This document shows positions 27,788-48,440 of a DNA stretch of 64,000 nucleotides, piece after piece. The translations under genes and the position numbers were made by a program. Each line of letters opens with the position of its first letter. Positions within the stretch are counted from its first letter, which is position 1. The notes under the pieces are model-generated. The model did no database searches. It was not told where the DNA came from and saw only the letters and a program-made list of their open reading frames with translations. The stretch covers positions 13,348-77,347 of the forward strand of contig CAZUZY010000002.1 in the NCBI GenBank assembly GCA_964624885.1. Reading direction: 5' to 3'. The stretch comes from an uncultured Polyangiales bacterium. GTDB taxonomy: Bacteria; Myxococcota_A; Polyangia; Polyangiales; JADJMO01.

Positions 27788-27814
27788 TTGCGACGGCGGG
27801 ATAGACTCCGCGCC

Positions 27815-29044
27815 ATGTCGGGTCTCGTCGGAAGGGCCGTCCTCGCCGGGGTGATCGCGCTCGCCGGGTGTTCGTCGAAGGACGCGCCCCCGGCGACCGC
27901 CGAGGACACGGGAGGCGAGGCGAGCGTCGCGCTGCCACCGTGGGCCATCGAGGCTCACGTCCTCGTCTCCGGGCACGACCCGGTGAGCGAGGACTGCCGC
28001 ACCGGGATCTGTCGCCACAACGAGAACACCGACCTGCTCGTGTGGAAGGGCGCCACCTATCTGGTGCACCGCACCGCCATCAGCCAGGTCCTCGGGCCGA
28101 ACAGCTCGCTGCGCATCTCGCGCACCACCGACGCGGGCAAGACCTGGGAGCCGCTCGCGACGATCCCCGCGCCGCTCGCCAAGCTCGGGCCCGACGACAA
28201 GGCCGACAAGGGACGCGACCTGCGTGACCCGTCGCTCTACGTCGTCGGCGACACGCTGCACCTCAAGGCGCTCACGCGGCTCCCGATCGTCTCGACGCGT
28301 GACGCGGGCGTCGACACCATCACCGTGCACAGCACCAGCACCGACGGCAAGACCTGGACGCCGCTCACCGCGATGGGCCCGCTCGGTCAGAGCTTCTGGC
28401 GCATCAAGAAGGCGCCGGACGGCAACTACTACAACGCGGCCTACGAGGACGCCGATCAGGCCGTGACGCTGTACTCGTCACCCGACGGCGTGACCTGGAC
28501 CAGGGGCGCGACGGTGTGGAGCGCCGCGGCGGACACCCCGCTCGAGACGGAGATCGAGTTCTTGCCCAAGGGGAAGATGCTCCTCCTCGTGCGCATGGAC
28601 GGAGACCCGGACAAGGCCGAATACCTGGACCCCGCGGCGCCGGGCGCGCGACAGCGGACGAAGGTCTGCTGGGCATCGCCGCCGTATTCGAAGGTCGACT
28701 GCCCGCAGGAGCTCACCAACGCGCGACTGGACGGCCCGGTGAGCTTCCAATGGAAAGGACGTTTGTTCGTCCTCGCACGCTCGCACCTTGCCGCAGTGAA
28801 GAAGCGGACGAGCCTGTTCGAGCTGAGCGGCGACCTCGACGGCGGGCCGCTCACGCTCAAGAACTGGGGTGACCTGCCGAGCGCGGGAGACACCGCCTAC
28901 GCCGGTGTCGCGCCGGTGGACGCCAACCGCTTCCTCGTGACCTGGTACTCGAGCGACGTCGGCGACGACCCGAACTGGCTCTACGGCATGGCGGGCCTGA
29001 CGGACGTGTGGCAGGGGACGCTCGATCTCTCGCGGCTGCCGTGA
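27815..29044 (+). CDS. BNR/sialidase-like beta-propeller lipoprotein
   Basis: Internal ATG 27815 of track ORF 27788..29044. Lipobox VIALAGC. BNR-type motifs TTDAGKTW, STDGKTW and SPDGVTW. Confidence 0.7.
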   Translation: MSGLVGRAVLAGVIALAGCSSKDAPPATAEDTGGEASVALPPWAIEAHVLVSGHDPVSEDCRTGICRHNENTDLLVWKGATYLVHRTAISQVLGPNSSLRISRTTDAGKTWEPLATIPAPLAKLGPDDKADKGRDLRDPSLYVVGDTLHLKALTRLPIVSTRDAGVDTITVHSTSTDGKTWTPLTAMGPLGQSFWRIKKAPDGNYYNAAYEDADQAVTLYSSPDGVTWTRGATVWSAAADTPLETEIEFLPKGKMLLLVRMDGDPDKAEYLDPAAPGARQRTKVCWASPPYSKVDCPQELTNARLDGPVSFQWKGRLFVLARSHLAAVKKRTSLFELSGDLDGGPLTLKNWGDLPSAGDTAYAGVAPVDANRFLVTWYSSDVGDDPNWLYGMAGLTDVWQGTLDLSRLP

Positions 29045-29728: not shown

Positions 29729-32695
29729 ATGAAAAAGTATACGAAACCAATCTCGCTCAGTAGCTTCGGGCTGCTCGCAGCGAGCATGTTGCTGGTCAGC
29801 GCCTGCGAAGGCTCCGCCGGGGAAGCCGGCGCGGCCGGGGCACCCTGCTCGGTCAAGGCGAACACCGACGGCTCCTCCACGATCACGTGTCCGGACGGCA
29901 CGTCCGTCACGGTGACCGGTGGCAAGGGCGACAAGGGCGACCCGGGCGACGCGGGCGCCAAGGGCGATCCGGGCGACTCGGGCACCTCGTGCACGATCGT
30001 CGACAACCCCGATGGCACCAAGACCATCACCTGCACCGACGGCACCAAGATCACGCTCTCGACCTCCACGGTCGACTACGCGCTGCTCTCTCCCGCCGAG
30101 AAGGAAGTCCTCGATCCCACGCTCACCATCGTGAAGGCGGACTTCCCGGCCGATGGCAAGCCGGTCCTGACCATGAAGGTCACCGACCGCAAGGGCATGC
30201 CGGTCAAGGGGCTCAACGCCCTCACCGACGGCGCGGGCATCAGCTGGCGCGCGGCGGTCCTCAAGCTCGAGCCGGGCTGCACCACGGGCACGGCGTGCGC
30301 GGGCAAGAGCGCGGCCGACACCTGGATCAGCTACATGGCCGCCAACGCGACCTCGAGCGCGAGCACCGAGTCGGCGTCGACCACCGCGGCGGCAACGGCG
30401 ACGGCCGGTCTCCTCAAGGACAACGGCGACGGCACGTACACCTACACCTTCGCCAAGGTCATCAACGTCGAGGCGTCGGCCGGCACCAAGTACGAGGCCG
30501 ACAAGACCCACCGCATCGCGGTCATCGCTTCGAAGTCGGGCAACCCGTTCCGCCCGATGAACGCCTACAAGGACCTCGTGCCCGCCACCGGCGCGGACAT
30601 GACCGGCAAGAACGACAAGGTCAACGGCGCCAACTGCCTGAACTGCCACTCGGAGTTCCGCGGCCGCGCCCTCAAGTCGGCCGACTTCCATGGCGGCGCG
30701 CGCTACGAGACGCACATCTGCGTCGCGTGCCACAACGACCAGCGCAAGTACTCGAGCACCGGCGCCGTCACGGCGGAGCCGACCATGACCGCGAGCGCGA
30801 CCACGCCGCCCACGTTCAAGTGGACCGGCAACGCGGCGGTGATCAACGGTGAGGCGGTCATCAACTGGCCGGTCTTCGTCCACAAGATCCACATGGGCGA
30901 GGAGCTCAGCCTCAAGGCCGATCGCGCCGGCGGCGGCGGCGGCTACTCCGCGGTCCAGTTCGACGAGGTCACCTACCCGCAGGACATCCGCAACTGCGCC
31001 AAGTGCCACAGCACGGCCGACAAGGCCGACAACTGGAAGAACCTGCCGAGCCGGCGCGCCTGCGGCGCCTGCCACGACGGCGTCTCCTTCGAGGCGACCC
31101 CGCCGGTCGGCCGCAAGGCCCACACGGGCGGCGCCAAGACCGACGACACCACGTGCACCCTCTGCCACACGGCGGCGGACATCACGGCCAAGCACATCCC
31201 GGTGACCCCGCCGGCGGCCATCACCACCGGCACCCTGCCGAGCTCCCCGGACGGCCAGTACGTCCAGTCGGGCTGGCAGTTCATCGGTGGCGCCAACAAG
31301 AGCTGCACCGTGGCTGCTCCGTGCACCTGCACGACGCTCAACCCGTGCCTGCCGAGCGCCAACAGCAACGCGGCCTACCTCGCCGGCACGGGCTTCGTCC
31401 CGACGGGCGCGGCCAAGATCACCTACGACGTCAAGGAAGTCCTCGTCGACGCGACGACCAAGAACCCGAAGATCGTCTTCAAGCTGCTCAAGGACGGCAC
31501 GGACGTCGACTTCGGCACCTACGCGGCCGGCACCAAGACCGAGCTGATGGACGGCTTCGTCGGTTCGCCCAGCGCGTACTTCGCCTGGTCGCTCCCGCAG
31601 GACGGCATCGCCACCCCGGTCGACTTCAATGCGAGCGCCAGCGTCTACATCAAGGGCGCGTGGGACGGCTCCACCACGGGGATGACGCTCACGCGTGACA
31701 GCGCGACGGGCTACTACACCCTCACCGTGGGGACCGTGGTCCTCCCGTCGACGGCCAAGATGCTGACCGGTGGCATCGGCTACACGTACAGCATGACGAG
31801 CACCCAGCCGCTGACGCAGACCAGCGTGGCCGCGTACTCGTACTCCGCCACGACCAAGATGGGTGGCCTCATCGTGCCGGCGCCGAACGTCTGGAAGACC
31901 GCCACGGGCTACACCGCCCGTCGCGCGATCGTCGAGACGGCGCGCTGCAACAAGTGCCACGACGGCCTCGGCGTCGCGCCGACCTTCCACACCGGTCAGC
32001 GCAACGACGGCCCGACCTGCTCGTTCTGCCACAACCCGAACCGCGTCAACGGCGGCTGGGCGGTGAACGCGAAGGACATCATCCACGCCATCCACGGCTC
32101 CGAGAAGCGCACCGTGCCGTTCACCTGGCATGGTGAGATCAAGGCCTGGAAGGTCGCCTACCCCGGCGTCCTGAACAACTGCCAGCAGTGCCACGTTGCC
32201 GGCGGCAACGACTTCAGCACGACCGCGGCGACCAGCGCGCTGCCGAACATGCTGTACAGCACCGCCGCCACCGGCACCTACAGCAACGCGCCCACCGCGC
32301 CGGCGACCATCGGTCCGTTCATCGCGCCGTACGTCACGCCCGGCACGAACTACGGCAACGGCTACGCGACGTCGAACCAGACCACGGGCGTCCGCACCAC
32401 GGGCACCCAGGGTGGCGTCGCCTGCACGCCGAGCGCGCCCTGCACCTGCACGACCACTGCGCCGTGCGTCTGCTCGCTGACCGCGCCCTGCGAGGCCGAG
32501 TCGACGACCCTCGTCCACTCGCCGATCACCGCCGCCTGCAGTGCTTGCCACGACAGCACTGTCGCCAAGAAGCACTTCGCGGACAACAACGGCTCGCTCT
32601 ACCTGCCGCGTAGCGTCGCTATCGGCAAGCCCGAGCAGTGCCTGATGTGCCACGGACCTGGCAAGGTCGCGGCCATCGCCGACGTGCACCAGTAG
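29729..32695 (+). CDS. Decaheme c-type cytochrome lipoprotein, OmcA/MtrC-like, with N-terminal collagen-like segment
   Basis: ATG 29729 lies in the frame of track ORF 29609..32695 and is preceded by GAGGGAG. Lipobox LLVSAC (Cys26). There are exactly 10 CxxCH motifs, with first Cys at aa 303, 331, 423, 445, 476 and 740, 764, 818, 937, 971. These form two pentaheme groups separated by a ~260-aa heme-free region. Seven Gly-X-Y triplets at aa 64-85. Confidence 0.85.
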   Translation: MKKYTKPISLSSFGLLAASMLLVSACEGSAGEAGAAGAPCSVKANTDGSSTITCPDGTSVTVTGGKGDKGDPGDAGAKGDPGDSGTSCTIVDNPDGTKTITCTDGTKITLSTSTVDYALLSPAEKEVLDPTLTIVKADFPADGKPVLTMKVTDRKGMPVKGLNALTDGAGISWRAAVLKLEPGCTTGTACAGKSAADTWISYMAANATSSASTESASTTAAATATAGLLKDNGDGTYTYTFAKVINVEASAGTKYEADKTHRIAVIASKSGNPFRPMNAYKDLVPATGADMTGKNDKVNGANCLNCHSEFRGRALKSADFHGGARYETHICVACHNDQRKYSSTGAVTAEPTMTASATTPPTFKWTGNAAVINGEAVINWPVFVHKIHMGEELSLKADRAGGGGGYSAVQFDEVTYPQDIRNCAKCHSTADKADNWKNLPSRRACGACHDGVSFEATPPVGRKAHTGGAKTDDTTCTLCHTAADITAKHIPVTPPAAITTGTLPSSPDGQYVQSGWQFIGGANKSCTVAAPCTCTTLNPCLPSANSNAAYLAGTGFVPTGAAKITYDVKEVLVDATTKNPKIVFKLLKDGTDVDFGTYAAGTKTELMDGFVGSPSAYFAWSLPQDGIATPVDFNASASVYIKGAWDGSTTGMTLTRDSATGYYTLTVGTVVLPSTAKMLTGGIGYTYSMTSTQPLTQTSVAAYSYSATTKMGGLIVPAPNVWKTATGYTARRAIVETARCNKCHDGLGVAPTFHTGQRNDGPTCSFCHNPNRVNGGWAVNAKDIIHAIHGSEKRTVPFTWHGEIKAWKVAYPGVLNNCQQCHVAGGNDFSTTAATSALPNMLYSTAATGTYSNAPTAPATIGPFIAPYVTPGTNYGNGYATSNQTTGVRTTGTQGGVACTPSAPCTCTTTAPCVCSLTAPCEAESTTLVHSPITAACSACHDSTVAKKHFADNNGSLYLPRSVAIGKPEQCLMCHGPGKVAAIADVHQ

Positions 32696-32866
32696 TCGGA
32701 CCGAGCCGCGAGGCTCACGAGCGAGGCGCCGAGAGATCGGCGCCTCGCCGCTTTTTGTCTCGCGGGGAGAAATGCTCCGTTGCGTGACGAATGTCACGTG
32801 AAGGAGCCTGCCCGAAGGTACTGGCCCGGGGTCGGCCTGCAGTGTCGCCCGGAAGGAGGAGCGGTC

Positions 32867-35800
32867 ATGCGTCCTCGTCTCACAGTCGCAGTCGCGTTCG
32901 TCGTCCTCGTCGGATGTGGGGGTGGTTCGGGTGGAGAAGGGGAGCCGGACGTCGACGTCCTGGACGCGGACGACGCGGAGGCCGCGACGGACACGGCTTC
33001 GACCGAGGGGGCGCCCGACACCGTGGTGCCTGGGGACTCGGCCGCCGACGCCACCACGGACGCCACCGAGGACGCGGTCGAGACCAGCGACGCCAGCGAC
33101 GCGACGGTCGACGTGGGCTTCCCGACGATCTGCACGACCTGCCACGGCGACCCGGCGACCGCGAACCCGGCGCCTCCCAAGGCCGTCTCGGGCGCGACCG
33201 ACACGACCTCGCCCAAGGTGGGCGCACATGCCAAGCACCTCGCCACGAGCGCCTGGCGCCACGAGGTGGCCTGCAACGACTGCCACGAGGTCCCCACGAG
33301 TCCGACCCACAGCAACGGCAAGACCGACTTCAAGTGGAGCAGCCTGGCGGGTGGGGCGAGCTACGACACCACGTTCACCTGCCGCGGGGCGTACTGCCAC
33401 GGCGCGACGCTCCTGCCTCCCCCGGCGGGCACCAGCGTTGCGCGGGTGCCCATGTGGAACGTCGTCGACGGCACCTACTCCAAGTGTGGAGAGAGCTGCC
33501 ACACCAACCCTCCCGGGGGTGGACACATCACCTCGACGAGCTGCTCCACCTGCCACGGCGACGTCATCGCCTCGTACGACGCGACCACCAAGACGGCCGT
33601 CTGGAAGGACGCTTCCCGCCACATCAACGGCACCGTCGATCTGGTCGGTGGCAAGACCTGCACGACGTGCCACGGCGACCCGGTCGCCAAGAGCCCGGCG
33701 CCCCCCAAGGGCACCAAGGGGGAGACCGCGACCACCGACCACGCGGTCGGCGCGCACCAGAACCACCTGCGCCCGAGCACGTGGCGGCGCGACGTCCAGT
33801 GCAACGACTGCCACGCGTTGCCGTTCCTCACCGAGCACTCCGACGGCAAGACCGACTTCGTGTGGAGCAGCGTCGCGACGAGTGGCGGTGCGACCCCACT
33901 CTACGACACCACCTCGTACACGTGCACGAGCGTGTACTGCCACGGCACGACGCTGAAGGGCGCCGTCACCGGCGGCACGATCAACCGCGAGCCGATCTTC
34001 AACCAGGTGGATGGCACGTTCAACGCCTGTGGCTCCAGCTGCCACACCAACCCTCCCGGTGACACCCACCCCAACAACACCGCGTGCCCCTCGTGTCACG
34101 GCGCGGTGATCGCGACCTACGACCCGGTGACGAAGGCGGCCACCTGGAAGGACCGCACGCTGCACGTCGACGGCATCGTCGAGCGCTCGACGCTCACCTG
34201 CACCACGTGCCACGGCAACCCGGTGACGGGCGATCCGGCGCCCCCGCTCTCCACCAAGGGGGAGACCGCCACGACGGCGCAAGCGGTCGGCGCGCACCAG
34301 GCCCACCTCGCGACGAGCACCTGGCGCAAGGACATGGTCTGCAGCGACTGCCACGTGGTGCCGACCTCCACGTCGCACTTCGATGGCAAGACCGACCTCG
34401 CGTGGGGCGCGCTCGCCACCACGCGCGGCAGCAAGCCCGCCTACGACGCCGCGAGCGCCAAGTGCTCGACGGTCTACTGCCACGGCGACGGCCTCCTCGG
34501 CGCCGCCTCGGGCGGCACCGTCGCCCGCAGTCCGATCTGGAACGTGGTCGACGGCACGTGGAAGGCGTGCGGCACCACCTGCCACACCAACCCTCCCGGA
34601 GGCACGCACCCCGCAGACACCGGCTGTCCCACCTGCCACGGCACGGTCATCGCGAGCTACGACGCGTCGACGAAGACGGCGACGTGGAAGAACCGCACGC
34701 TGCATGTCAACGGCGTGGTCGAGAAGTCTGCGTTGCTCTGCACCTCGTGCCACGGCGACCCCGCGGTCAACGAGGCGCCACCCAGGGGGACCAAGGGCGA
34801 GACCCTGAGCTCGCAGAAGGCGGTCGGCGCGCACCAGAAGCACCTGTCGACCTCGGCCTGGCACCGCGACGTCGTGTGCGCGGACTGCCACGAGAAGCCC
34901 GTCTCGCCCACGCACTCGAACGGCGTCACGGACTTCGCGTGGAGCACTCTGAGCTCGGCCGCCGGCGCGAAGCCGGCCTACGACGGCGCGACCGCGACCT
35001 GCTCGAGCGTGTACTGCCACGGCAGCACGCTGCTGCCCGCGACCAGCGGCGGAACGACCAAGCGTTCGCCGGTGTGGACGACGGTGGACGGCTCCTTCGA
35101 GGCCTGCGGCGCGAGCTGCCACACCAACCCGCCCGGCGGGACACACCCGACCTCCACGGCGTGCAACACCTGCCACGGCGCGGTCGTCACGAGCTACGAT
35201 CCGGTGACCAAGGCCACGGTCTGGAAGGACCGCACGCTCCACATCAACGGCGTCGTCGACCGCGTGGACCTGAACTGCACCTCGTGTCACGGCAACCCGC
35301 TGACCAGCGACGCGGCGCCGCCCAAGGGCACCAAGGGCGAGACCCTGAGCTCGCAGAAGGCCGTCGGCGCCCACCAGAACCACCTGCTCACGAGCACGTG
35401 GCGCAAGGACCTCGCCTGCAACGACTGCCACGCGGTGCCCATCTCGCCGACCCACACCAACTCGGTGACGGACTTCTCGTGGGGTGCGCTGAGCACGACG
35501 GGCGGCGCCACGCCGAGCTACGACTCGGCCACCGTGACCTGCTCTGGCGTCTACTGCCACGGCTCCACGCTGGCGGGGGCGATCGTCGGCGGCACGGTCA
35601 AGAAGGCGCCGCTCTGGACGACCGTCGACGGCAGCTATGTCGCCTGCGGTGCGAGCTGCCACACCAACCCGCCCGGCGGCACGCACAGCACGAGCACCGA
35701 CTGCGCGATGTGCCACGGCACGGTCATCGCGGGGTACGACGCGACGACCAAGAAGGCCACGTGGGCGGACCGCACGCTGCACGTGAACGGCAAGAAGGAG

Positions 35801-36682
35801 TCGAGCAAGTACCACGACCTCGGTGGCTGGACCTCGCCCGGCGGAGGCGCCAACCACCACGGGAGCCACTACTTCCTCACCAACCAGCAGAAGGACGAGC
35901 ACGGCCGCCTCTGCACCGACTGTCACGGTACGGACTACGCGGGTGGCACGGTGGGTGTCTCCTGCAACAACGCGAGCTGCCACAAGGGTGCCGACTGGCG
36001 CGGATGCTCCTTCTGCCACGGCACGCCGCCGAGTCAGTGGAGCCCACCGGTCGGCGTCGCGAAGGAGACCGCGACCAACACGCTCGCGGTCGGGCGCCAC
36101 ACGGCGCACCTGACGAGCAGCACGACGCACGTCGCCTTCGCCTGCGCGACCTGTCACACGGTGCCCGCGACGGGCGACGTGTCGCACGCCCTCGGCTACG
36201 TGTCGAGCCCGACCCTCGAGACCACCGGTCACCACGGTGACGTCACCTTCACCGCGGGCGGCGTGGGCATGACGTTCGCGGCGACCGCCTCGACCGGCAC
36301 CCCCGTCACCGCGCGCGGCACCTGTCTCGGCGGTTGTCACTCGAACGGTCGCGGTGGTCCTCCGGCGGTGACGCCGTACTGGGCCGGCGGAGCGTGGACG
36401 GTGGGTAGCTGCACCGCCTGCCACTCGAACTCGATGAGCAGCCTCGGCGCCCGGCACCCGAAGCACTCGGGCGAGGGCCTCACGTGCACGTCGTGTCACC
36501 CGGCAGCGAGTGGGAGCACGCACCTCGACGGCACGAAGGAGGTGTCCGGGACGATCACCGGGCCGTCGGGGGGCTCGGTCACGACGAAGGCGCCCGGTGC
36601 TGCGGGCAATCCGTGCGGTGCGGCGTGGTCGTGCAGCGGGACCTGCCACGGCAAGTCGCACACGAACTTCTGCTGGAAGTGA
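32867..36682 (+). CDS. Giant multiheme c-type cytochrome lipoprotein (CxxxxCH...CxxCH repeat family), 33 heme-attachment motifs
   Basis: ATG 32867 lies in the frame of track ORF 32780..36682 and is preceded by GGAAGGAGGA. Lipobox VLVGC. I counted 20 CxxCH, 6 Cx4CH and 7 Cx3CH motifs. Five tandem modules of 176-180 aa are followed by a degenerate sixth. Confidence 0.85.
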   Translation: MRPRLTVAVAFVVLVGCGGGSGGEGEPDVDVLDADDAEAATDTASTEGAPDTVVPGDSAADATTDATEDAVETSDASDATVDVGFPTICTTCHGDPATANPAPPKAVSGATDTTSPKVGAHAKHLATSAWRHEVACNDCHEVPTSPTHSNGKTDFKWSSLAGGASYDTTFTCRGAYCHGATLLPPPAGTSVARVPMWNVVDGTYSKCGESCHTNPPGGGHITSTSCSTCHGDVIASYDATTKTAVWKDASRHINGTVDLVGGKTCTTCHGDPVAKSPAPPKGTKGETATTDHAVGAHQNHLRPSTWRRDVQCNDCHALPFLTEHSDGKTDFVWSSVATSGGATPLYDTTSYTCTSVYCHGTTLKGAVTGGTINREPIFNQVDGTFNACGSSCHTNPPGDTHPNNTACPSCHGAVIATYDPVTKAATWKDRTLHVDGIVERSTLTCTTCHGNPVTGDPAPPLSTKGETATTAQAVGAHQAHLATSTWRKDMVCSDCHVVPTSTSHFDGKTDLAWGALATTRGSKPAYDAASAKCSTVYCHGDGLLGAASGGTVARSPIWNVVDGTWKACGTTCHTNPPGGTHPADTGCPTCHGTVIASYDASTKTATWKNRTLHVNGVVEKSALLCTSCHGDPAVNEAPPRGTKGETLSSQKAVGAHQKHLSTSAWHRDVVCADCHEKPVSPTHSNGVTDFAWSTLSSAAGAKPAYDGATATCSSVYCHGSTLLPATSGGTTKRSPVWTTVDGSFEACGASCHTNPPGGTHPTSTACNTCHGAVVTSYDPVTKATVWKDRTLHINGVVDRVDLNCTSCHGNPLTSDAAPPKGTKGETLSSQKAVGAHQNHLLTSTWRKDLACNDCHAVPISPTHTNSVTDFSWGALSTTGGATPSYDSATVTCSGVYCHGSTLAGAIVGGTVKKAPLWTTVDGSYVACGASCHTNPPGGTHSTSTDCAMCHGTVIAGYDATTKKATWADRTLHVNGKKESSKYHDLGGWTSPGGGANHHGSHYFLTNQQKDEHGRLCTDCHGTDYAGGTVGVSCNNASCHKGADWRGCSFCHGTPPSQWSPPVGVAKETATNTLAVGRHTAHLTSSTTHVAFACATCHTVPATGDVSHALGYVSSPTLETTGHHGDVTFTAGGVGMTFAATASTGTPVTARGTCLGGCHSNGRGGPPAVTPYWAGGAWTVGSCTACHSNSMSSLGARHPKHSGEGLTCTSCHPAASGSTHLDGTKEVSGTITGPSGGSVTTKAPGAAGNPCGAAWSCSGTCHGKSHTNFCWK
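33131..35810 (+). repeat. Five in-frame tandem coding repeats of ~530-540 bp inside the giant cytochrome gene
   Basis: The first Cys codon of each module's CT(T/S)CHG lies at 33131, 33659, 34199, 34739 and 35276, giving periods of 528, 540, 540 and 537 nt. Units 4 and 5 share exact runs such as accaagggcgagaccctgagctcgcagaaggc and gcgagctgccacaccaacccgcccggcgg. Confidence 0.9.
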
Positions 36683-36780: not shown

Positions 36781-37143
36781 ATGCACCATCGACTCTGGTC
36801 GTGGACTCTGGTTCTGGGCGCGATTGGCTGCTCTTCGGGCGGCAGCACGGATCCTGGCGTCGGGCCGACGGGGCTTGTGGTCGGCGCGACCTGCACCAAG
36901 GACGCGCAGTGCACGTACAAGTGCGACAACAACACCTGCACCAAGGCGTGCAAGAACGACCTCGATTGTCCAGGCGGCACGGTCTGCATCACGTCCGACT
37001 CGGGCAAGTGCGCGATCGTCTGCGTCGACAACACCTCGTGCGCCGGCGTGGGCGGGAGCACGGCGGGGAGTGCGGCCTATGTCTGCCGCGCCGAGACCAA
37101 GCTCGACGGCACCGGCAAGGCCAACGTGTGCAGGGAGCCGTAG
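36781..37143 (+). CDS. Small Cys-rich lipoprotein (120 aa)
   Basis: ATG 36781 lies in the frame of track ORF 36484..37143 and is preceded by GAAGGGAG. Lipobox LGAIGC. The mature part has 12 further Cys (CTKDAQCTYKCDNNTCTKACKNDLDCPGGTVC...) and no CxxCH. Confidence 0.75.
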   Translation: MHHRLWSWTLVLGAIGCSSGGSTDPGVGPTGLVVGATCTKDAQCTYKCDNNTCTKACKNDLDCPGGTVCITSDSGKCAIVCVDNTSCAGVGGSTAGSAAYVCRAETKLDGTGKANVCREP

Positions 37144-37170: not shown

Positions 37171-40100
37171 CTAGCGCACCCGCGGCTTGGTGAACCGGTC
37201 CATCGCGAGGTAGATGACCGGCGTCGTGAACAGGGTGAGGAGCTGCGAGAGCAGGAGCCCGCCGACGATGGTGATGCCGAGCGGGGTGCGGAGCTCCGAG
37301 CCCGCGCCGCCGCCGATGGCCAGCGGCAGGCCGCCGAGGAGGGCGGCCATCGTGGTCATGAGGATCGGTCGGAAGCGCAGCACGGCCGCCTTGTAGATCG
37401 CGTCGACCGGCGGCACGCCCTCGTCGCGCTCGAGCTCGATGGCGAAGTCGATCATCATGATGGCGTTCTTCTTCACGATGCCGATGAGCAAGAGGATGCC
37501 GACCAGCGCGATGATGCTGAACTCGGTCTTGAAGAGCAGCAACGCGAGCAGCGCGCCCACGCCGGCCGAGGGCAGGGTGGACAGGATGGTGATGGGGTGG
37601 ATGGTGCTCTCGTAGAGCACGCCGAGCACGATGTAGACGGTGATCAACGCCGCCAGGATCAGGAACGGCTGCGACGAGAGCGAGCTCTGGAACGCCTGGG
37701 CGGTGCCCGAGAACGAGCCCTGCACGGTCGCCGGCGCGCCGATGGCGAGGCGCGCCTTCTCGATGGCCGCGACGGCGTCGCTCATCGCCTTGCCGGGCGC
37801 GAGGTTGAACGAGATGGTCGTCGAGGGGAACTGGCCTTGGTGGTTGACCGAGAGGGCGGTCGCGCTCTCCTTCACCTTGGTCACCGCCGACAGCGGCACA
37901 GGCCCGCCCGCCGAGCCGACGAAGATCTTGCCGAGCGCGTCGGGCGTCGTCGAGAGCTCCGGCTTGATCTCGAGGACCACGCGGTACGGATTGGCCTGGG
38001 TGTAGGTGGTCGCGATCTGCCGCTGCCCGAACGCGTCCGAGAGCGTCGCGTCGATCGCGACGGGCGTGATCCCGAGCTTGCTCGCGCTGTCGCGGTCGAT
38101 CCCGAGCTCGAGCTGTCGACCCGCGGTCTGCTGGTCGGTGTTGACGTCCTTGAGCTCGGGGAGCTTGCGGAGGGCGTCGACCAGCTTCGGACCCCACACG
38201 AGCAGCTCCTCGAGGTTCGCGTCCTGGAGCGTGTACTGGTACTGCGTGCGGGCGAGGCGGCCGCCGATGCGGACGTCCTGCATCGACTGCAGGAACAGCG
38301 TGATCCCGTCGGCCTTGGCGAGCTGGGGGCGCAGCCGGGCGATGATGGCGTCGGCGGTCACCTTGCGGCCGGTGCGGGGCTTGAGCGCGATGAACGTGGT
38401 GCCGGTGTTGCCCGCCGAGCCGCCGGGGCCACCGCCCATGAACGACACCGAGTGGAGCACCTCCGGGTCGGTCTTCACGATCTCGTTGAGCTTGGTCTGC
38501 CGCGCCAGCATCGCGGGGAAGCTGATGTCCTGCGGGGCCTCCGAGAAGCCCATCAGCATGCCGGTGTCCTGCTGGGGGAACAGGCCCTTCGGGACGATGA
38601 CGTAGAGATAGATGGTGAGCGAGAGCGTGAGGACGGTGAGCAGACCCACGACGGGGCGATGGCGCAGCACCCAGCGCAGCGCGCCGGAGTAGGCGCCGAG
38701 CAGGCCGTCGAAGAACGCCTCCGAGGCGCGAGCGAGCAGGCCAGGCCGCTCCGTGCTGCGCGTGCGGAGCAGCTGGGCGCACATCATCGGCGTCAAGGTG
38801 AGCGACACCACGGCCGAGATGGCGATGGCGATGCTGAGCACCACCGCGAACTCCCGGAAGAGTCGTCCGACGATGCCCCCCATCAGCAGGATGGGGATGA
38901 ACACCGCGAGCAGGGACACCGTGATCGAGACGATGGTGAAGCCGATCTGCTTCGCGCCGCGCAAAGCGGCTTCGACCGGCGCGACCCCCTCCTCGAGGAA
39001 TCGGGTCACGTTCTCGGTCACCACGATGGCATCGTCGACCACGAAGCCGGTCGCGATGGTGAGGGCCATCAGCGACAGGTTGTCGAGGCTGTAGTCGAGC
39101 AGGTACATCACGCCGAACGTGCCGAGCAGCGAGATCGGCACCGCGACGCTCGGGATGATGGTGGCCCGCGCGCTCCGCAGGAACACGAACACCACCGCGA
39201 TCACGAGGCCGATGGAGATGAGCAGGGTCTTCTCGACGTCCTCGACCGAGGCGCGGATGGTCTCGGTGCGATCGACGGCCACCTCGAGCTTGATCGCCGG
39301 GGAGATCGAGGTGGAGAGCTTGGGGATCAGCGATTTGACCCGCTCGGTCGTCTCGATGATGTTGGCGCCGGGTTGCCGGCGGACGATGCACAGCACGGCG
39401 CGGCGGCCGTCGGCCCAGGCGGCGACCCGGTTGTTCTCCACGTCGTCGACGACCTGGGCGACGTCGCGCAGGCCCAGGGCCGCGCCGGCGTTGTGGCGCA
39501 GCACGAGCCCCTCGAAGGCCCGGGCGCCGAACAGCTGGTCGTTGGCGCCGATGGTCTGGGTGAGCAGCGCGCTCGAGAGCGAGCCCTTGGGCACGTCGAC
39601 GGTGGCGCCCGCGATGACGGTCCGCACGTCCTCGAGGGAGAGCCCGGTGCCGGCCAGCTTCAGGGGGTCGACCTGCACGCGCACGGCGGGCTGCTGGCCG
39701 CCACCGACGAACACCTGCCCGACGCCGTCGACCTGCGAGATCTTCTGGGCCAGCACCGTGTTGGCCTCCTCGAACACCCGCGACAGCGGGAGCGCGTCCG
39801 AGGTGAGGGCCAGGATCAGGATCGGCGTGTCCGCGGGGTTCACCTTGCGGTAGTTCGGCCGCGTCGGCATGTTGGTCGGGAGCTCGCCGCCCGCGGCGCC
39901 GATCGCGGCTTGCACGTCGCGCGCCGCCGAGTCCGCGTCGCGGTCGAGGTCGAACTGCATCGTGATCTGCACCGAGCCGATCGCCGACGTGCTGGTGATC
40001 TCGGTGATCCCGGCGATGCGCCCGAACCGGCGCTCGAGCGGGGTGGCGACGGCCGCCGCCATCGTCTCGGGCGAGGCCCCGGGGAGCGCCGCGTTCACCG

Positions 40101-40236
40101 AGATGGTGGGGAAGTCCACCCGCGGGAGCGGTGAGACCGGCAGGAGCTTGTAGGCGGCGAGCCCCGCCAGCAGGATCGCGAGCGCGAGCAGCGTCGTCGC
40201 GATGGGCCGACGGATGAACGGCTCGCTGACGTTCAC
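37171..40236 (-). CDS. mdtC: Multidrug efflux RND transporter permease, MdtC-like
   Basis: GTG 40236 lies in the frame of track ORF 37171..43410 and overlaps the TGA of the upstream gene. The N-terminus VNVSEPFIRRPIATTLLALAILLAGLAAYKLLPVSPLPRVDFPTISV...GASPETMAAAVATPLERRFGRIAG aligns closely, by eye, with E. coli MdtC. Confidence 0.9.
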   Translation of the reverse strand: MNVSEPFIRRPIATTLLALAILLAGLAAYKLLPVSPLPRVDFPTISVNAALPGASPETMAAAVATPLERRFGRIAGITEITSTSAIGSVQITMQFDLDRDADSAARDVQAAIGAAGGELPTNMPTRPNYRKVNPADTPILILALTSDALPLSRVFEEANTVLAQKISQVDGVGQVFVGGGQQPAVRVQVDPLKLAGTGLSLEDVRTVIAGATVDVPKGSLSSALLTQTIGANDQLFGARAFEGLVLRHNAGAALGLRDVAQVVDDVENNRVAAWADGRRAVLCIVRRQPGANIIETTERVKSLIPKLSTSISPAIKLEVAVDRTETIRASVEDVEKTLLISIGLVIAVVFVFLRSARATIIPSVAVPISLLGTFGVMYLLDYSLDNLSLMALTIATGFVVDDAIVVTENVTRFLEEGVAPVEAALRGAKQIGFTIVSITVSLLAVFIPILLMGGIVGRLFREFAVVLSIAIAISAVVSLTLTPMMCAQLLRTRSTERPGLLARASEAFFDGLLGAYSGALRWVLRHRPVVGLLTVLTLSLTIYLYVIVPKGLFPQQDTGMLMGFSEAPQDISFPAMLARQTKLNEIVKTDPEVLHSVSFMGGGPGGSAGNTGTTFIALKPRTGRKVTADAIIARLRPQLAKADGITLFLQSMQDVRIGGRLARTQYQYTLQDANLEELLVWGPKLVDALRKLPELKDVNTDQQTAGRQLELGIDRDSASKLGITPVAIDATLSDAFGQRQIATTYTQANPYRVVLEIKPELSTTPDALGKIFVGSAGGPVPLSAVTKVKESATALSVNHQGQFPSTTISFNLAPGKAMSDAVAAIEKARLAIGAPATVQGSFSGTAQAFQSSLSSQPFLILAALITVYIVLGVLYESTIHPITILSTLPSAGVGALLALLLFKTEFSIIALVGILLLIGIVKKNAIMMIDFAIELERDEGVPPVDAIYKAAVLRFRPILMTTMAALLGGLPLAIGGGAGSELRTPLGITIVGGLLLSQLLTLFTTPVIYLAMDRFTKPRVR

Positions 40237-43200
40237 GGCGCGGCGGCCTCGCTCTCCAGCGGGGGAGCCTTCGCGCCGCGGAAGAGGCGGGAGAGTCGCT
40301 CCATGTAGAGGTACACGACCGGCGTCGTGTAGAGCGTGAGCACCTGCGAGATGAGGAGCCCCCCGACGATGGTGATGCCGAGCGGGCGACGCAGCTCGGC
40401 GCCCGTGCCCGTCTCGATGGCCAGCGGTAGGCCGCCGAGCAGCGCGGCCATGGTGGTCATCATGATCGGCCGGAACCGCAGGAGGCACGCCTTGTGGATC
40501 GCCTCCTCGGGGGTGAGGCCCTGCTCGCGCTCCGCCTCCAGCGCGAAGTCGATCATCATGATGGCGTTCTTCTTCACGATGCCGATGAGCAGCACGATGC
40601 CGATGAGCGCGATGATGGTGAACTCCACCCGGCACACGAGCAGCGCGAGGAACGCGCCCACGCCCGCGGAGGGCAGCGTCGAGAGGATGGTGACGGGGTG
40701 GATGTAGCTCTCGTAGAGCACACCGAGCACGATGTAGACGGTGAGCAGGGCGGCCAGGATCAAGAGGGGCTCGCTGGCCAGCGAGGCGCGGAACGCCTGG
40801 GCGGTGCCCTGGAAGTCGGCGTGGATCCCGGGCGGCAGCTCGAGGCGCACCGAGGTCCGGCGGATGGCCTCGACCGCGTCGCCGAGGGAGACCCCGGGCG
40901 CCGTGTCGAACGACAGCGTGACCACCGGGAACTGGCCCTGGTGGGTGATGGCGACCGGCGCCGAGGTCTCCTCGAACTTGGCGAACGACGAGAGCGGGAT
41001 GCTGGCGCCCCCCGTGGCCTTCACGAAGACCTGCGCCAGCGCCGACGGGCTGTCCTGGTACTCGGGCTTCACCTCGAGGATCACGCGGTACTGGTTGAGC
41101 TGGGTGAAGATGGTGGAGATCTGCCGCTGACCGAACGCGTCGTAGAGGACGTCGTCGATCTGCTGCGGCGACACGCCGAGGCGCGACGCGGTGTCGCGGT
41201 CGATGACCACGGTGACCTTGCGGCCAAGAGCCCCTTGATCGCTCGCCACGTTGCGCAGCTCCGGGAGCTTGCGCAGCTCCTCGAGGAGCCGCGGCGCCCA
41301 GACGCGGAGCTCCTCGGGGTCGGCGTCCTCGAGCGTGTACTGGTACTGGGTGCGCGACGCCCGGCTCTCGATGGTGAGGTCCTGCACCGGCTGCAGGTAG
41401 ACCGCGAGGCCAGCGACCCCGGCGAGCTTCGGCTCGAGGCGCGCGAGGATGGCGGCGATGTCGCTCGAGCGCTCCTCGCGGGGCTTGAGCGAGATCGAGA
41501 AGCGGCCGCTGTTGCTGGTGGCGTTCTGGCCGTCGGCGCCGATGAACGACGAGACACTGACCACGTCTGGGTCCTTGCGCAGCACGTCCGCGGCCGCGCG
41601 CTGCAGGTCGATCATGCGGGTGAAGGAGACGTCGGGCGCTGCCTCGGTGACGCCGAGGATCAGGCCGGTGTCCTGCTGGGGGAAGAACCCCTTGGGGACG
41701 AGGACGGCGAGCCAGGCCGTGAGGACGACGGTGCCGATGGTGAGCAGCAGGGTGAACAGCTGGTGACGCAGCACCCACCGCACACCGACGTCGTAGCCGG
41801 CGATGATCCGCTCCCACACGCGCTCGCTCCACTGGTAGAGGCGGCCCTCCTTGCGCTCCTCCCGGAGGAGGTGGGCGCACATCATGGGCGTCAGGGTGAG
41901 TGACAGCACCGCCGAGACGGCGATGGCCGCGGCGAGGGTGACCGCGAACTCGCGGAACAGGCGCCCGATGAGCCCCTGCATGAAGAGGAGCGGGATGAGC
42001 ACCGCGATCAGCGACACGGTGAGCGAGACGATCGTGAAGCCAATCTGCTTCGCGCCCGCGAGCGCGGCCTCGAACGGCGACTCGCCCTCCTCGATGTAGC
42101 GGGCGATGTTCTCGATCATCACGATGGCGTCGTCGACGACGAAGCCGGTCGAGATGGTGAGCGCCATCAGCGAGAGGTTGTTCAGCGAGTACCCGAGGAA
42201 GTACATCACGCCGAACGTGCCCACGAGCGAGAGCGGGACCGCGAGCGCCGGGATCAGCGTGGCGCGCCAGTTGCGCAGGAACACGAAGATCACCATGACG
42301 ACGAGGCCGATGGTGAGCACCAGCGTGAACTGCACGTCGCGCACCGAGGCCCGCACGGTCTCGGTGCGGTCGGTGAGGATCTCGACCTTCATGCCTTGCG
42401 GCAGCGAGGAGGAGAGCTGAGGCAGCAGCGCCTTCACCCGATCGGCGACCTGGATGATGTTGGCGCCGGGCTGGCGCTGGACGTTGAGGATGACGGCGCG
42501 GTGGTCGCCGGCCCACCCGGCGAGCTGGGTGTTCTCCACGCCGTCGGTCACCTTGGCCACCGCGCGGAGCCGGATCGGCGCGCCGTTGCGGTAGGCGAGG
42601 ATGATCGGCTCGAACTGCTTGGCCTCGGTGAGCTGATCGTCGGTCTGCAGGGTGAAGTCCTGCCGCGGGCCGTCGATGTTGCCCTTGGGCTGGTTCACGT
42701 TGGCGGCGACGACGGCGAGGCGGACGTCCTCCATGGTGAGCGAGGCGCCCGCGAGCGCGGCCGGGTCGACCTGCACGCGCACCGCGGGCTTCTGGCCGCC
42801 GCCGAGCGTGACGAGGCCCACGCCCGACACCTGCGAGATCTTCTGCGCCAGGATCGAGTCGGCGTAGTCGTCCACCTTCTCGAGCGGCAGCGTGTCGGAC
42901 GAGATCGAGAGGGTGAGGATCGGCGCGTCGGCGGGGTTGCTCTTGCTGTAGACCGGCGGGGCCGGCAGCGTGCGCGGCAGGAGGTTGCTCGCGGCGTTGA
43001 TGGCCGCCTGCACGTCCTGCTCGGCGGCGTCGATGCTCCGATCCAGGTTGAACTGCAGGGTCACCTGCGACCACCCGAAGCTCGAGACCGAGGTCATCTG
43101 CGTGAGCGCCGGGATCTGCCCGAACTGTCGCTCGAGGGGCGTGGTGACCGCCGACGCCATCGTCTCGGACGAGGCGCCGGGCAGGTACGTCGAGATGACG

Positions 43201-43334
43201 ATGGTCGGGTAGTCGACCTGCGGGAGCGCCGAGACCGCGAGCTCCCGATAGGCGACCAGGCCCGCGAGCAGGAGTCCGATCATCAGCAGCGTCGTCGCCA
43301 CCGGCCGGCGGATGAACGGCGCCGAGATGCTCAC
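40233..43334 (-). CDS. mdtB: Multidrug efflux RND transporter permease, MdtB-like
   Basis: Track ORF of 1033 aa. MSISAPFIRRPVATTLLMIGLLLAG...LPQVDYPTI...TPLERQFGQIP...AEQDVQAAINAA aligns closely, by eye, with E. coli MdtB. Confidence 0.9.
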   Translation of the reverse strand: MSISAPFIRRPVATTLLMIGLLLAGLVAYRELAVSALPQVDYPTIVISTYLPGASSETMASAVTTPLERQFGQIPALTQMTSVSSFGWSQVTLQFNLDRSIDAAEQDVQAAINAASNLLPRTLPAPPVYSKSNPADAPILTLSISSDTLPLEKVDDYADSILAQKISQVSGVGLVTLGGGQKPAVRVQVDPAALAGASLTMEDVRLAVVAANVNQPKGNIDGPRQDFTLQTDDQLTEAKQFEPIILAYRNGAPIRLRAVAKVTDGVENTQLAGWAGDHRAVILNVQRQPGANIIQVADRVKALLPQLSSSLPQGMKVEILTDRTETVRASVRDVQFTLVLTIGLVVMVIFVFLRNWRATLIPALAVPLSLVGTFGVMYFLGYSLNNLSLMALTISTGFVVDDAIVMIENIARYIEEGESPFEAALAGAKQIGFTIVSLTVSLIAVLIPLLFMQGLIGRLFREFAVTLAAAIAVSAVLSLTLTPMMCAHLLREERKEGRLYQWSERVWERIIAGYDVGVRWVLRHQLFTLLLTIGTVVLTAWLAVLVPKGFFPQQDTGLILGVTEAAPDVSFTRMIDLQRAAADVLRKDPDVVSVSSFIGADGQNATSNSGRFSISLKPREERSSDIAAILARLEPKLAGVAGLAVYLQPVQDLTIESRASRTQYQYTLEDADPEELRVWAPRLLEELRKLPELRNVASDQGALGRKVTVVIDRDTASRLGVSPQQIDDVLYDAFGQRQISTIFTQLNQYRVILEVKPEYQDSPSALAQVFVKATGGASIPLSSFAKFEETSAPVAITHQGQFPVVTLSFDTAPGVSLGDAVEAIRRTSVRLELPPGIHADFQGTAQAFRASLASEPLLILAALLTVYIVLGVLYESYIHPVTILSTLPSAGVGAFLALLVCRVEFTIIALIGIVLLIGIVKKNAIMMIDFALEAEREQGLTPEEAIHKACLLRFRPIMMTTMAALLGGLPLAIETGTGAELRRPLGITIVGGLLISQVLTLYTTPVVYLYMERLSRLFRGAKAPPLESEAAAP

Positions 43335-48415: not shown

Positions 48416-48440
48416 GGGCGCGTCGCGACGAAGGTGAGGT

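What the first reader, a model, noticed from the sequence alone, without database searches (positions are those of the whole stretch)
32867..36682. 1271-aa lipoprotein with 33 heme-attachment motifs arranged as a fixed five-motif module repeated five times
Seen: after the lipobox comes an acidic Asp/Ala/Thr-rich linker, then five consecutive modules. Each module has the same ordered set: CT(T/S)CHG(D/N)P, then (A/K)VGAHxxHL, then CxDCH, then Cx4CHG, then Cx3CHTNPPG, then CxxCHG. A degenerate sixth module and tail add 8 more motifs (CTDCH, CNNASCH, CSFCH, CATCH, CLGGCH, CTACH, CTSCH, CSGTCH). My count is 20 CxxCH + 6 Cx4CH + 7 Cx3CH = 33, about one motif per 38-39 residues. Established: CxxCH is the canonical c-type heme site, and Cx4CH sites bind heme in Desulfovibrio tetraheme cytochrome c3. 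Inference: if all sites are loaded, this would be a very long heme wire or capacitor. The invariant AVGAHxxHL histidines are candidates for distal ligands. Whether the Cx3CH sites (CHTNPPGG) bind heme is unknown to me.
Basis: partly seen in the sequence, partly recalled or inferred. Interest (0 to 1): 0.8.

Follow-up and report, generated by a model that had tools for sequence, protein, structure and literature searches.

The report
33-heme repeat cytochrome lipoprotein
This gene really does encode a lipid-anchored protein with 33 heme-attachment sites built from a five-heme unit repeated five times, but that unit is the standard building block of a large, already annotated and still uncharacterised family of bacterial "electron wire" cytochromes.

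Summary
Window 32867-36682 (+) encodes a 1271-aa lipoprotein with 20 CxxCH, 7 Cx3CH and 6 Cx4CH motifs (33). It has five ~180-aa modules, 55-66% identical, followed by a conserved 296-aa, eight-motif C-terminal cap.

The arrangement is not new. The protein scores 149 bits (cut-off 27) on NCBIfam TIGR01904, "CxxxxCH/CxxCH domain c-type cytochrome". Sequences at least 90% identical are already in NCBI under that name, from Myxococcales MAGs. The same module is found in 2,989 50%-identity clusters, in up to 30 copies (151 motifs). One relative is the 40-motif cytochrome of Anaeromyxobacter dehalogenans.

- **Cx3CH site.** It aligns to a canonical CxxCH site in most relatives, so it is a one-residue loop variant of a heme site.
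- **Ligands.** Each module carries five further conserved histidines, including the AVGAHxxH pair. This fits five bis-His hemes per module.
- **Structure.** No solved structure is related by sequence or by fold.
- **Context.** The gene has its own terminator-bounded transcription unit next to an OmcA/MtrC-family decaheme lipoprotein gene.
- **Likely function (inferred).** A membrane-tethered single-chain heme wire or electron store for extracytoplasmic electron transfer.

Verdict: ordinary new member of a known kind.

The parts
32721..32758 (+). Intrinsic-terminator-like hairpin (12-bp stem, 10 G-C pairs, T-run). It lies between the upstream OmcA/MtrC-like gene and this gene, so this gene probably has its own transcription unit.
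32854..32860 (+). Shine-Dalgarno-like GGAGGAG, 6 nt before the ATG at 32867.
   Evidence: read directly from the sequence
32867..36682 (+). Whole gene: a 1271-aa multiheme c-type cytochrome lipoprotein with 33 CxnCH motifs, of the TIGR01904 family.
32867..32917 (+). Lipoprotein signal peptide, aa 1-17, with lipobox L-V-G-C17.
   Evidence: read directly from the sequence
32918..33106 (+). Acidic low-complexity linker rich in Asp, Ala, Thr and Gly (aa 18-80). Presumed flexible tether.
33107..33634 (+). Module 1 (aa 81-256). Motifs CTTCH, CNDCH, CRGAYCH, CGESCH, CSTCH.
33635..34174 (+). Module 2 (aa 257-436). Motifs CTTCH, CNDCH, CTSVYCH, CGSSCH, CPSCH.
34175..34714 (+). Module 3 (aa 437-616). 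Motifs CTTCH, CSDCH, CSTVYCH, CGTTCH, CPTCH. Conserved extra histidines at 477, 480, 504, 581 and 613.
34715..35251 (+). Module 4 (aa 617-795). Motifs CTSCH, CADCH, CSSVYCH, CGASCH, CNTCH. The best TIGR01904 stretch is aa 683-761.
35252..35791 (+). Module 5 (aa 796-975). Motifs CTSCH, CNDCH, CSGVYCH, CGASCH, CAMCH.
35792..36679 (+). Conserved C-terminal cap (aa 976-1271): two extra motifs, a degenerate sixth module and one terminal motif, eight in all. Conserved in 15 orthologs are 14 non-motif His, Met1135 and the pair Cys1250/Cys1269.
29729..32695 (+). Neighbouring gene, given as context: an OmcA/MtrC-family decaheme c-type cytochrome lipoprotein with ten CxxCH motifs and a collagen-like N-terminal repeat.
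   Evidence: TIGR03507, 382 bits against a cut-off of 209

Best explanation
The gene encodes a lipid-anchored multiheme c-type cytochrome of the CxxxxCH/CxxCH-domain family (NCBIfam TIGR01904, Pfam PF09698).

Inferred maturation: after Sec export and lipidation at Cys17, the cell's general cytochrome c maturation system attaches heme c at all 33 CxnCH sites.

Shown from conservation: each ~180-aa module supplies five proximal histidines (the H of each motif) and five further conserved histidines. The five hemes of a module are therefore most likely low-spin bis-His electron-transfer hemes with no open catalytic site.

Inferred architecture: five modules in series plus an eight-heme cap make one continuous chain of closely spaced hemes. 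It hangs from the membrane by a ~63-residue acidic flexible linker.

Inferred function: it carries electrons, and transiently stores up to about 33 of them, outside the cytoplasm. The most likely place is the cell surface, working together with the neighbouring OmcA/MtrC-type decaheme lipoprotein. Likely acceptors are minerals, humic substances or other cells, during the oxic/anoxic swings of activated sludge.

The Cx3CH site is a one-residue-longer loop version of the family's ordinary fourth CxxCH site.
For: - **Family.** TIGR01904 E = 2e-44, 149 bits against a cut-off of 27, six stretches. PF09698 and PF14522 also match.
- **Relatives.** More than 600 homologs were found in a capped search, and those that carry a name are called CxxxxCH/CxxCH domain proteins. 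Cluster mates at least 90% identical are already named that way in NCBI (MBL8716455.1, MBK7395107.1). The module profile finds 2,989 representatives, 996 of them at E <= 1e-30.
- **Module is the family unit.** Motif strings of relatives are tandem runs of 2-2-4-2-2 or 2-2-4-3-2, from 2 to 30 copies.
- **Heme site and ligand counts.** In 254 modules the 15 motif positions are 96-100% conserved and five extra histidines are 88-100% conserved. The same columns are invariant in alignments A1 and A2.
- **Cx3CH.** It is homologous to CxxCH. CXXXCH carries heme c in MmcA by mass spectrometry (PMC11024163). CXXXXCH occurs twice in cytochrome c3 (PMC10454114).
- **All sites conserved.** All 33 motifs are kept in orthologs of 72-92% identity.
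- **Export.** Lipobox and linker.
- **Neighbour.** A full-length OmcA/MtrC-family decaheme lipoprotein.
- **Literature.** Predicted long extracellular single-chain heme wires that are not in porin operons are described for Desulfuromonadia (PMC11492766). The homolog P0088 of A. dehalogenans has 40 motifs, matching the 40-heme cytochrome discussed as a possible capacitor in PMC2330069.
Against: - There is no experimental evidence for heme loading, localisation or function for any member that I could find.
- A strong terminator separates the gene from the OmcA/MtrC-like neighbour. That neighbour is absent beside more distant homologs, so the functional link is weak.
- No porin or periplasmic partner cytochrome lies in the window; only two CxxCH-rich ORFs are present.
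- Surface exposure as opposed to a periplasmic position cannot be decided from the lipobox.
- The AlphaFold models are only low to moderate in confidence (pLDDT 57 and 67.5), and coordinates could not be inspected. Heme-heme distances and His-heme pairings were therefore not tested.
- The cap carries about six more conserved histidines than its eight hemes need. A different role for the tip, such as metal or substrate binding, is not excluded.
Confidence: 0.6

Rival explanations
1. A periplasmic electron store or bridge rather than a surface wire. The lipoprotein stays on the periplasmic face of the inner or outer membrane. It buffers electrons, up to 33 per molecule, or spans the periplasm during shifts between oxic and anoxic conditions.
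For: - The gene stands alone, without a porin or secretion partner.
- The capacitor idea was proposed for the 40-heme Anaeromyxobacter relative (PMC2330069) and for high-heme secreted cytochromes of activated-sludge MAGs (PMC11495043).
- The closest genome matches are activated-sludge Myxococcales MAGs.
Against: - A chain of 33 hemes would be longer than a typical periplasm, if the roughly 350 Å predicted for 27 hemes in PMC11492766 applies here.
- The adjacent gene belongs to a family whose characterised members are cell-surface lipoproteins (TIGR03507; their localisation is from my general knowledge of Shewanella MtrC/OmcA).
Confidence: 0.25
2. A multiheme enzyme. The repeats only feed electrons to a catalytic heme or metal site in the conserved C-terminal cap, for example a reductase for a soluble oxyanion or a metal.
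For: - The cap is a distinct domain, 55-94% conserved.
- It has a surplus of conserved histidines (YHDL, NHHG, DEH, GHHGD), a conserved Met and a conserved Cys pair beyond what eight bis-His hemes need.
Against: - The cap matches no known catalytic multiheme family. NCBIfam gives only a sub-threshold TIGR01904 match for the cap.
- The only PDB hit for the whole protein is an insignificant match to NrfA (E = 0.015).
- There is no CxxCK or other known catalytic-heme motif.
- There are enough histidines for all eight cap hemes to be six-coordinate.
Confidence: 0.1
3. The Cys/His motifs are structural zinc or disulfide sites, not heme sites.
For: Only a spurious Pfam match to the zinc-finger-like Pcf11_C domain (PF21936, no stretch passing on its own).
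Against: - Every one of the 33 Cys pairs is followed directly by His.
- The protein is exported as a lipoprotein.
- It passes the curated cut-off of a c-type cytochrome family model.
- The number of additional conserved histidines per module equals the number of motifs.
Confidence: 0.02

Closest known systems
CxxxxCH/CxxCH domain c-type cytochromes (NCBIfam TIGR01904, Pfam PF09698), including the 40-motif cytochrome of Anaeromyxobacter dehalogenans 2CP-C (P0088)
   Same: - It passes the curated family model.
- It has the same ~180-aa five-site module with the same five extra histidines, repeated in tandem.
- Many members have a lipobox.
- The gene usually stands alone.
   Different: - In this clade the fourth site of every full module is Cx3CH instead of CxxCH, giving 2-2-4-3-2 against the commoner 2-2-4-2-2.
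- Only five full modules are present, whereas relatives have up to 30.
- It has its own conserved eight-motif cap.
GSU1996-type dodecaheme 'nanowire' cytochromes built from c7 triheme repeats (TIGR04257, PF14522)
   Same: - Same principle: a single polypeptide made of repeated small multiheme units, giving an elongated heme chain.
- PF14522 gives a match across a module junction, aa 220-316.
   Different: - No TIGR04257 hit at E <= 0.01.
- No c7 or GSU1996 PDB chain is found by sequence or by profile.
- No fold match.
- The repeat here holds five hemes in 180 aa, not three in about 75.
Polymerising cytochrome filaments OmcS, OmcE and OmcZ
   Same: Presumed job: long-distance electron transport along a chain of stacked bis-His hemes outside the cell.
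   Different: - Those are filaments made of many small subunits; this is one covalent chain tethered by a lipid anchor.
- No sequence or fold similarity to any solved chain.
Desulfovibrio tetraheme cytochrome c3 and Methanosarcina MmcA
   Same: - They use non-canonical Cx4CH (c3; PMC10454114) and Cx3CH (MmcA, heme shown by mass spectrometry; PMC11024163) alongside CxxCH.
- The HxxH distal-ligand pair ahead of a CxxCH motif resembles c3/c7 (from my own knowledge, not tested here).
   Different: - No detectable homology in the PDB searches.
- Size and architecture are very different.

Membership tests
TIGR01904 / PF09698 CxxxxCH/CxxCH domain c-type cytochrome | Score above the curated cut-off of the family model | tested here: met
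   TIGR01904 gives 149.1 bits against a cut-off of 27, in six stretches. PF09698 gives 30 bits against 21.7.
TIGR01904 / PF09698 CxxxxCH/CxxCH domain c-type cytochrome | Domain occurs as several tandem copies in one protein | tested here: met
   Five full modules plus one degenerate module. Relatives have 2-30 copies.
TIGR01904 / PF09698 CxxxxCH/CxxCH domain c-type cytochrome | Literal signature: CxxxxCH followed about 28 residues later by CxxCH | tested here: not met
   In the five full modules the second motif is Cx3CH (for example CSSVYCH...CGASCH). In the cap the pair is Cx3CH...CxxCH (CLGGCH...CTACH). Alignment shows these are the homologous columns with a difference of one residue in the loop. 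Other members also vary, reading 2-2-3-2-2. The letter of the name fails, but homology holds.
TIGR01904 / PF09698 CxxxxCH/CxxCH domain c-type cytochrome | Covalent heme c at the motifs | not testable with these tools
   Needs heme staining or mass spectrometry. Indirect support comes from the conserved proximal His and the equal number of conserved distal His.
Cytochrome c7/c3 superfamily (PF14522, PF02085) | Homology to solved c7 or c3 chains, or a shared fold | tested here: inconclusive
GSU1996-type c7-repeat nanowire cytochromes (TIGR04257) | Match to the triheme nanowire domain model | tested here: not met
   No TIGR04257 hit at E <= 0.01 for this protein.
OmcS/OmcE/OmcZ polymerising cytochrome filaments | Sequence or fold similarity to a filament subunit | tested here: not met
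   No PDB chain of these proteins was found by sequence or by fold.
OmcA/MtrC decaheme family (TIGR03507); this row concerns the neighbouring gene, not the 33-heme protein | Full-length match above the cut-off, and ten CxxCH motifs | tested here: met
   The neighbour at 29729-32695 gives 382 bits against 209, profile positions 4-672 of 672, and has ten CxxCH motifs. The 33-heme protein itself does not match this family.

The most novel reading that the evidence does not exclude
The ~180-aa five-heme module could be a multiheme fold with no solved relative. It would use a systematic Cx3CH heme at site 4. Chained five times and capped by a histidine-rich eight-heme tip, it would form a lipid-tethered single-polypeptide nanowire roughly 40 nm long. 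Such a wire would be an alternative to polymerised cytochrome filaments. The same module is scaled up to 151 hemes in relatives, more than the 113-heme record quoted in the literature.
Probability: 0.35. Interest if true: 0.5.

Novelty: new member of a known kind. Interest (0 to 1): 0.25.

Why it matters
This particular gene matters little. It is a mid-sized member of a family that annotation pipelines already recognise, and near-identical sequences are already public under that family name.

The family is worth more attention than the gene. About 3,000 clusters at 50% identity share one five-heme module, repeated 2 to 30 times. No member has a solved structure, a measured heme count or a demonstrated function.

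A two-module construct from a compact member such as this one would be a practical target for three questions:
- a first structure of the module;
- a direct test of whether Cx3CH and Cx4CH sites are loaded;
- a measurement of conduction along a single-chain heme wire of defined length.

Tried and rejected
- **AlphaFold2, single module 3, 32-row alignment.** Mean pLDDT 56.9, too poor to use.
- **AlphaFold2, modules 3 and 4 together.** pLDDT 67.5, pTM 0.53. Both modules show the same pattern of secondary structure, but coordinates cannot be read, so heme-site distances and His pairings were not tested.
- **PDB sequence searches.** The whole protein, the module profile and the junction segment that Pfam calls c7-like gave nothing significant. 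I therefore treat the PF14522 c7 match as motif-driven and do not claim c7 membership.
- **The search for related loci with the alignment.** It failed for lack of a sufficiently conserved stretch. The single-sequence scan gave only five loci, all Myxococcales or uncultured MAGs.
- **Tandem Repeats Finder.** It found nothing because its longest period (500) is below the 540-nt module. Pairwise DNA identity was computed instead.
- **Conserved operon.** Rejected. The neighbours differ in P0003, P0005 and Anaeromyxobacter P0019.
- **Geobacter proteins.** I could not confirm that specific proteins such as GSU2887 or GSU2884 carry this module, and I do not claim it.
- **Pcf11_C (PF21936).** Dismissed as a Cys/His artefact.
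Full report

Yes, in every detail. The + strand ORF starting at ATG 32867 and ending with the stop at 36680-36682 encodes 1271 aa. A GGAGGAG ribosome-binding site lies 6 nt upstream of the ATG.

A regular-expression count gives 20 CxxCH, 7 Cx3CH and 6 Cx4CH, 33 motifs in all. 66 of the 69 cysteines lie in these motifs. Shuffling the same residues 2000 times gives a mean of 0.66 motifs and a maximum of 6.

The N-terminus (MRPRLTVAVAFVVLVG|C17) is a lipoprotein signal with a lipobox. It is followed by a 63-residue linker rich in Asp, Ala and Thr.

Five modules follow, at aa 81-256, 257-436, 437-616, 617-795 and 796-975. They are 55-66% identical as protein and 67-76% as DNA. Each has the order CxxCH, AVGAHxxHL, CxxCH, Cx4CH, Cx3CH, CxxCH.

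The last 296 residues carry eight more motifs. They include a degenerate sixth module.

**2. What is it?**

It is a member of an annotated family.
- NCBIfam TIGR01904, "CxxxxCH/CxxCH domain c-type cytochrome", matches with E = 2e-44. The score is 149 bits against a curated cut-off of 27, in six stretches.
- Pfam gives PF09698, the same motif family, and the generic PF14522 c7 model.
- A capped homology search returned 602 proteins at E <= 1e-5. The named ones are called CxxxxCH/CxxCH domain proteins and come from Anaeromyxobacter, Polyangiaceae, Myxococcales and "Deltaproteobacteria" MAGs.
- The 90%-identity cluster of the best hit holds a 1271-aa member. It also holds NCBI entries MBL8716455.1 and MBK7395107.1, already named [quoted passage not shown].
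- Genome-contig hits of 95% and 92% identity are Myxococcales MAGs. One carries an EsbW isolate label, which I read as a Danish wastewater-plant MAG.

**3. Is the five-motif module a new arrangement?**

No. Writing each protein as a string of loop lengths shows that the relatives are tandem runs of the same five-site unit.
- The window's closest clade reads 2-2-4-3-2.
- Anaeromyxobacter and most other members read 2-2-4-2-2.
- Some members read 2-2-3-2-2.

An HMM built from the window's five modules recovered 254 full modules from 85 of 121 proteins.

A profile of the module was searched against 1.84 billion cluster representatives. It found 2,989 proteins at E <= 1e-3 and 996 at E <= 1e-30, with up to 30 matched stretches in one protein.
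- The largest, P0121, has 5,264 aa and 151 motifs.
- P0122 has 72 motifs, in 13 or more modules of the same 2-2-4-3-2 type as the window.
- P0088 from A. dehalogenans has exactly 40 motifs. This matches the "40 heme" cytochrome highlighted in the 2CP-C genome paper (PMC2330069).

The window's protein is therefore a mid-sized, ordinary member.

Module orthology is one-to-one with the 72-75% identical orthologs P0003 and P0004. It is scrambled with more distant relatives. Copy number has therefore changed repeatedly in the family.

**4. Do the Cx3CH sites bind heme?**

This cannot be proven here, but three lines of evidence say yes.
- **Homologous position.** The TIGR01904 and PF09698 models span site 3 (Cx4CH), site 4 and the following PPxxxHP histidine. 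The "CxxCH" in the family name is therefore site 4. The window's Cx3CH occupies exactly that column, with one extra loop residue: ACGTTCH against ACGTCH.
- **Conservation.** The site is conserved as strongly as the canonical sites, with Cys at 96% and 98% and His at 98% over 254 modules.
- **Precedent.** A CXXXCH motif was shown by peptide mass spectrometry to carry heme c in Methanosarcina MmcA (PMC11024163). CXXXXCH occurs twice in cytochrome c3 (PMC10454114).

**5. Ligands**

Beyond the five motif histidines, exactly five more histidines per module are conserved at 88-100%. All five are invariant in the curated alignments A1 and A2.

Five proximal plus five further histidines fits five six-coordinate bis-His hemes. 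That is the signature of electron-transfer hemes rather than catalytic ones. Which histidine serves which heme was not tested.

**6. The C-terminal cap**

Residues 976-1271 are conserved at 55-94% in 15 proteins that share the terminal motif string 2-4-2-2-3-2-2-3. The cap holds eight motifs and 14 conserved non-motif histidines, among them YHDL, NHHG, DEH and GHHGD. Met1135 and a Cys1250/Cys1269 pair are also conserved.

This is about six histidines more than eight bis-His hemes need. The cap is the end farthest from the lipid anchor, so it is the obvious candidate for the contact or reaction site. That is inference only.

**7. Structure**

No solved structure is related by sequence, whether the query is the whole protein, the module profile or the junction segment.

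AlphaFold2 without hemes gave pLDDT 56.9 for one module and 67.5 (pTM 0.53) for two modules. In the two-module model both modules show the same pattern: short helices at each CxnCH and at AVGAHxxHL, plus two small hairpins.

**8. Context**

The gene immediately upstream (29729-32695, +) is a full-length OmcA/MtrC-family decaheme lipoprotein. It scores 382 bits on TIGR03507 against a cut-off of 209. It has ten CxxCH motifs and a collagen-like N-terminal repeat.

A strong terminator hairpin at 32721-32758 separates the two genes, so they are probably transcribed separately.

The pairing is kept in the 92% ortholog. It is absent beside P0003, P0005 and Anaeromyxobacter P0019, where the gene stands alone among unrelated genes.

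No porin, periplasmic cytochrome or other CxxCH-rich ORF lies in the 64-kb window. This matches the published description of predicted long single-chain heme wires in Desulfuromonadia. Those are predicted to be extracellular and are not part of porin-cytochrome operons (PMC11492766). I did not verify that that cluster belongs to this same family.

**9. Most likely mechanism**

- **Shown.** It is an exported lipoprotein of a c-type cytochrome family, with 33 conserved heme-attachment motifs and a matching set of conserved distal histidines.
- **Inferred.** All sites are loaded by the general maturation system. The hemes form one continuous chain. If the roughly 13 Å per heme implied by the 27-heme, 350 Å prediction in PMC11492766 holds here, the chain is about 40 nm long. 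It is tethered by the acidic linker and moves or stores electrons outside the cytoplasm.
- **Favoured reading.** It works at the cell surface with the OmcA/MtrC-like neighbour.

Rivals are a periplasmic electron store or bridge (0.25), an enzyme with a catalytic cap (0.1), and non-heme Cys/His sites (0.02).

**10. Verdict**

The suggested novelty of the module does not hold, because the module is the family's standard repeat. The only distinctive point is the systematic Cx3CH at site 4 in this Myxococcales clade. That is one of several loop-length variants in the family.

Classification: new member of a known kind. Interest is low for the gene and moderate for the uncharacterised family.

Noticed in passing
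P0121 and P0123 (relatives from public metagenomes, not in the window): The same five-heme module occurs 30 times in a 5,264-aa protein with 151 CxnCH motifs (P0121, JGI metagenome). It occurs about 24 times in a 4,309-aa protein with 126 motifs (P0123, MBI4817592.1). Both exceed the 113-heme 'record' quoted in PMC11492766.
   Followed up: partly
window 29729-32695 (+): An OmcA/MtrC-family decaheme lipoprotein (TIGR03507, 382 bits) in a Myxococcales genome. It has a collagen-like Gly-X-Y / collagen-flanked surface repeat near its N-terminus (PF19079 hit below cut-off). This N-terminal addition looks unusual to me for this family, a point I did not check.
   Followed up: partly
window 36781-37143 (+): A small 120-aa lipoprotein (lipobox LGAIGC) with 16 cysteines and no Pfam or NCBIfam match lies directly downstream of the 33-heme gene. 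A 119-aa gene sits at the same position in the 92% ortholog locus (L001 12337-12696).
   Followed up: partly
window 27788-29044 (+): A 418-aa lipoprotein (lipobox LAGC) with no family match lies upstream of the two cytochrome genes. An unannotated 426-aa gene sits just upstream of the P0003 homolog (L002 6550-7830). Whether the two are related was not checked.
   Followed up: no
window 37171-43541 (-): Two large RND (AcrB-type) efflux transporter genes lie on the opposite strand just downstream. The same arrangement (PF00873 genes) is seen in the ortholog locus L001.
   Followed up: no
window 48438-51329 (+): The stop-to-stop reading frame submitted to Pfam here matches both an alpha-amylase catalytic domain and a radical SAM domain. 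This is an odd combination. It may be two adjacent genes merged by my stop-to-stop ORF call.
   Followed up: no
aa 976-1271 of the protein (window 35792-36679): The C-terminal cap has about six more conserved histidines (NHHG, GHHGD, YHDL, DEH) than its eight hemes need, plus a conserved Cys1250/Cys1269 pair. This could be a metal- or substrate-binding tip.
   Followed up: partly
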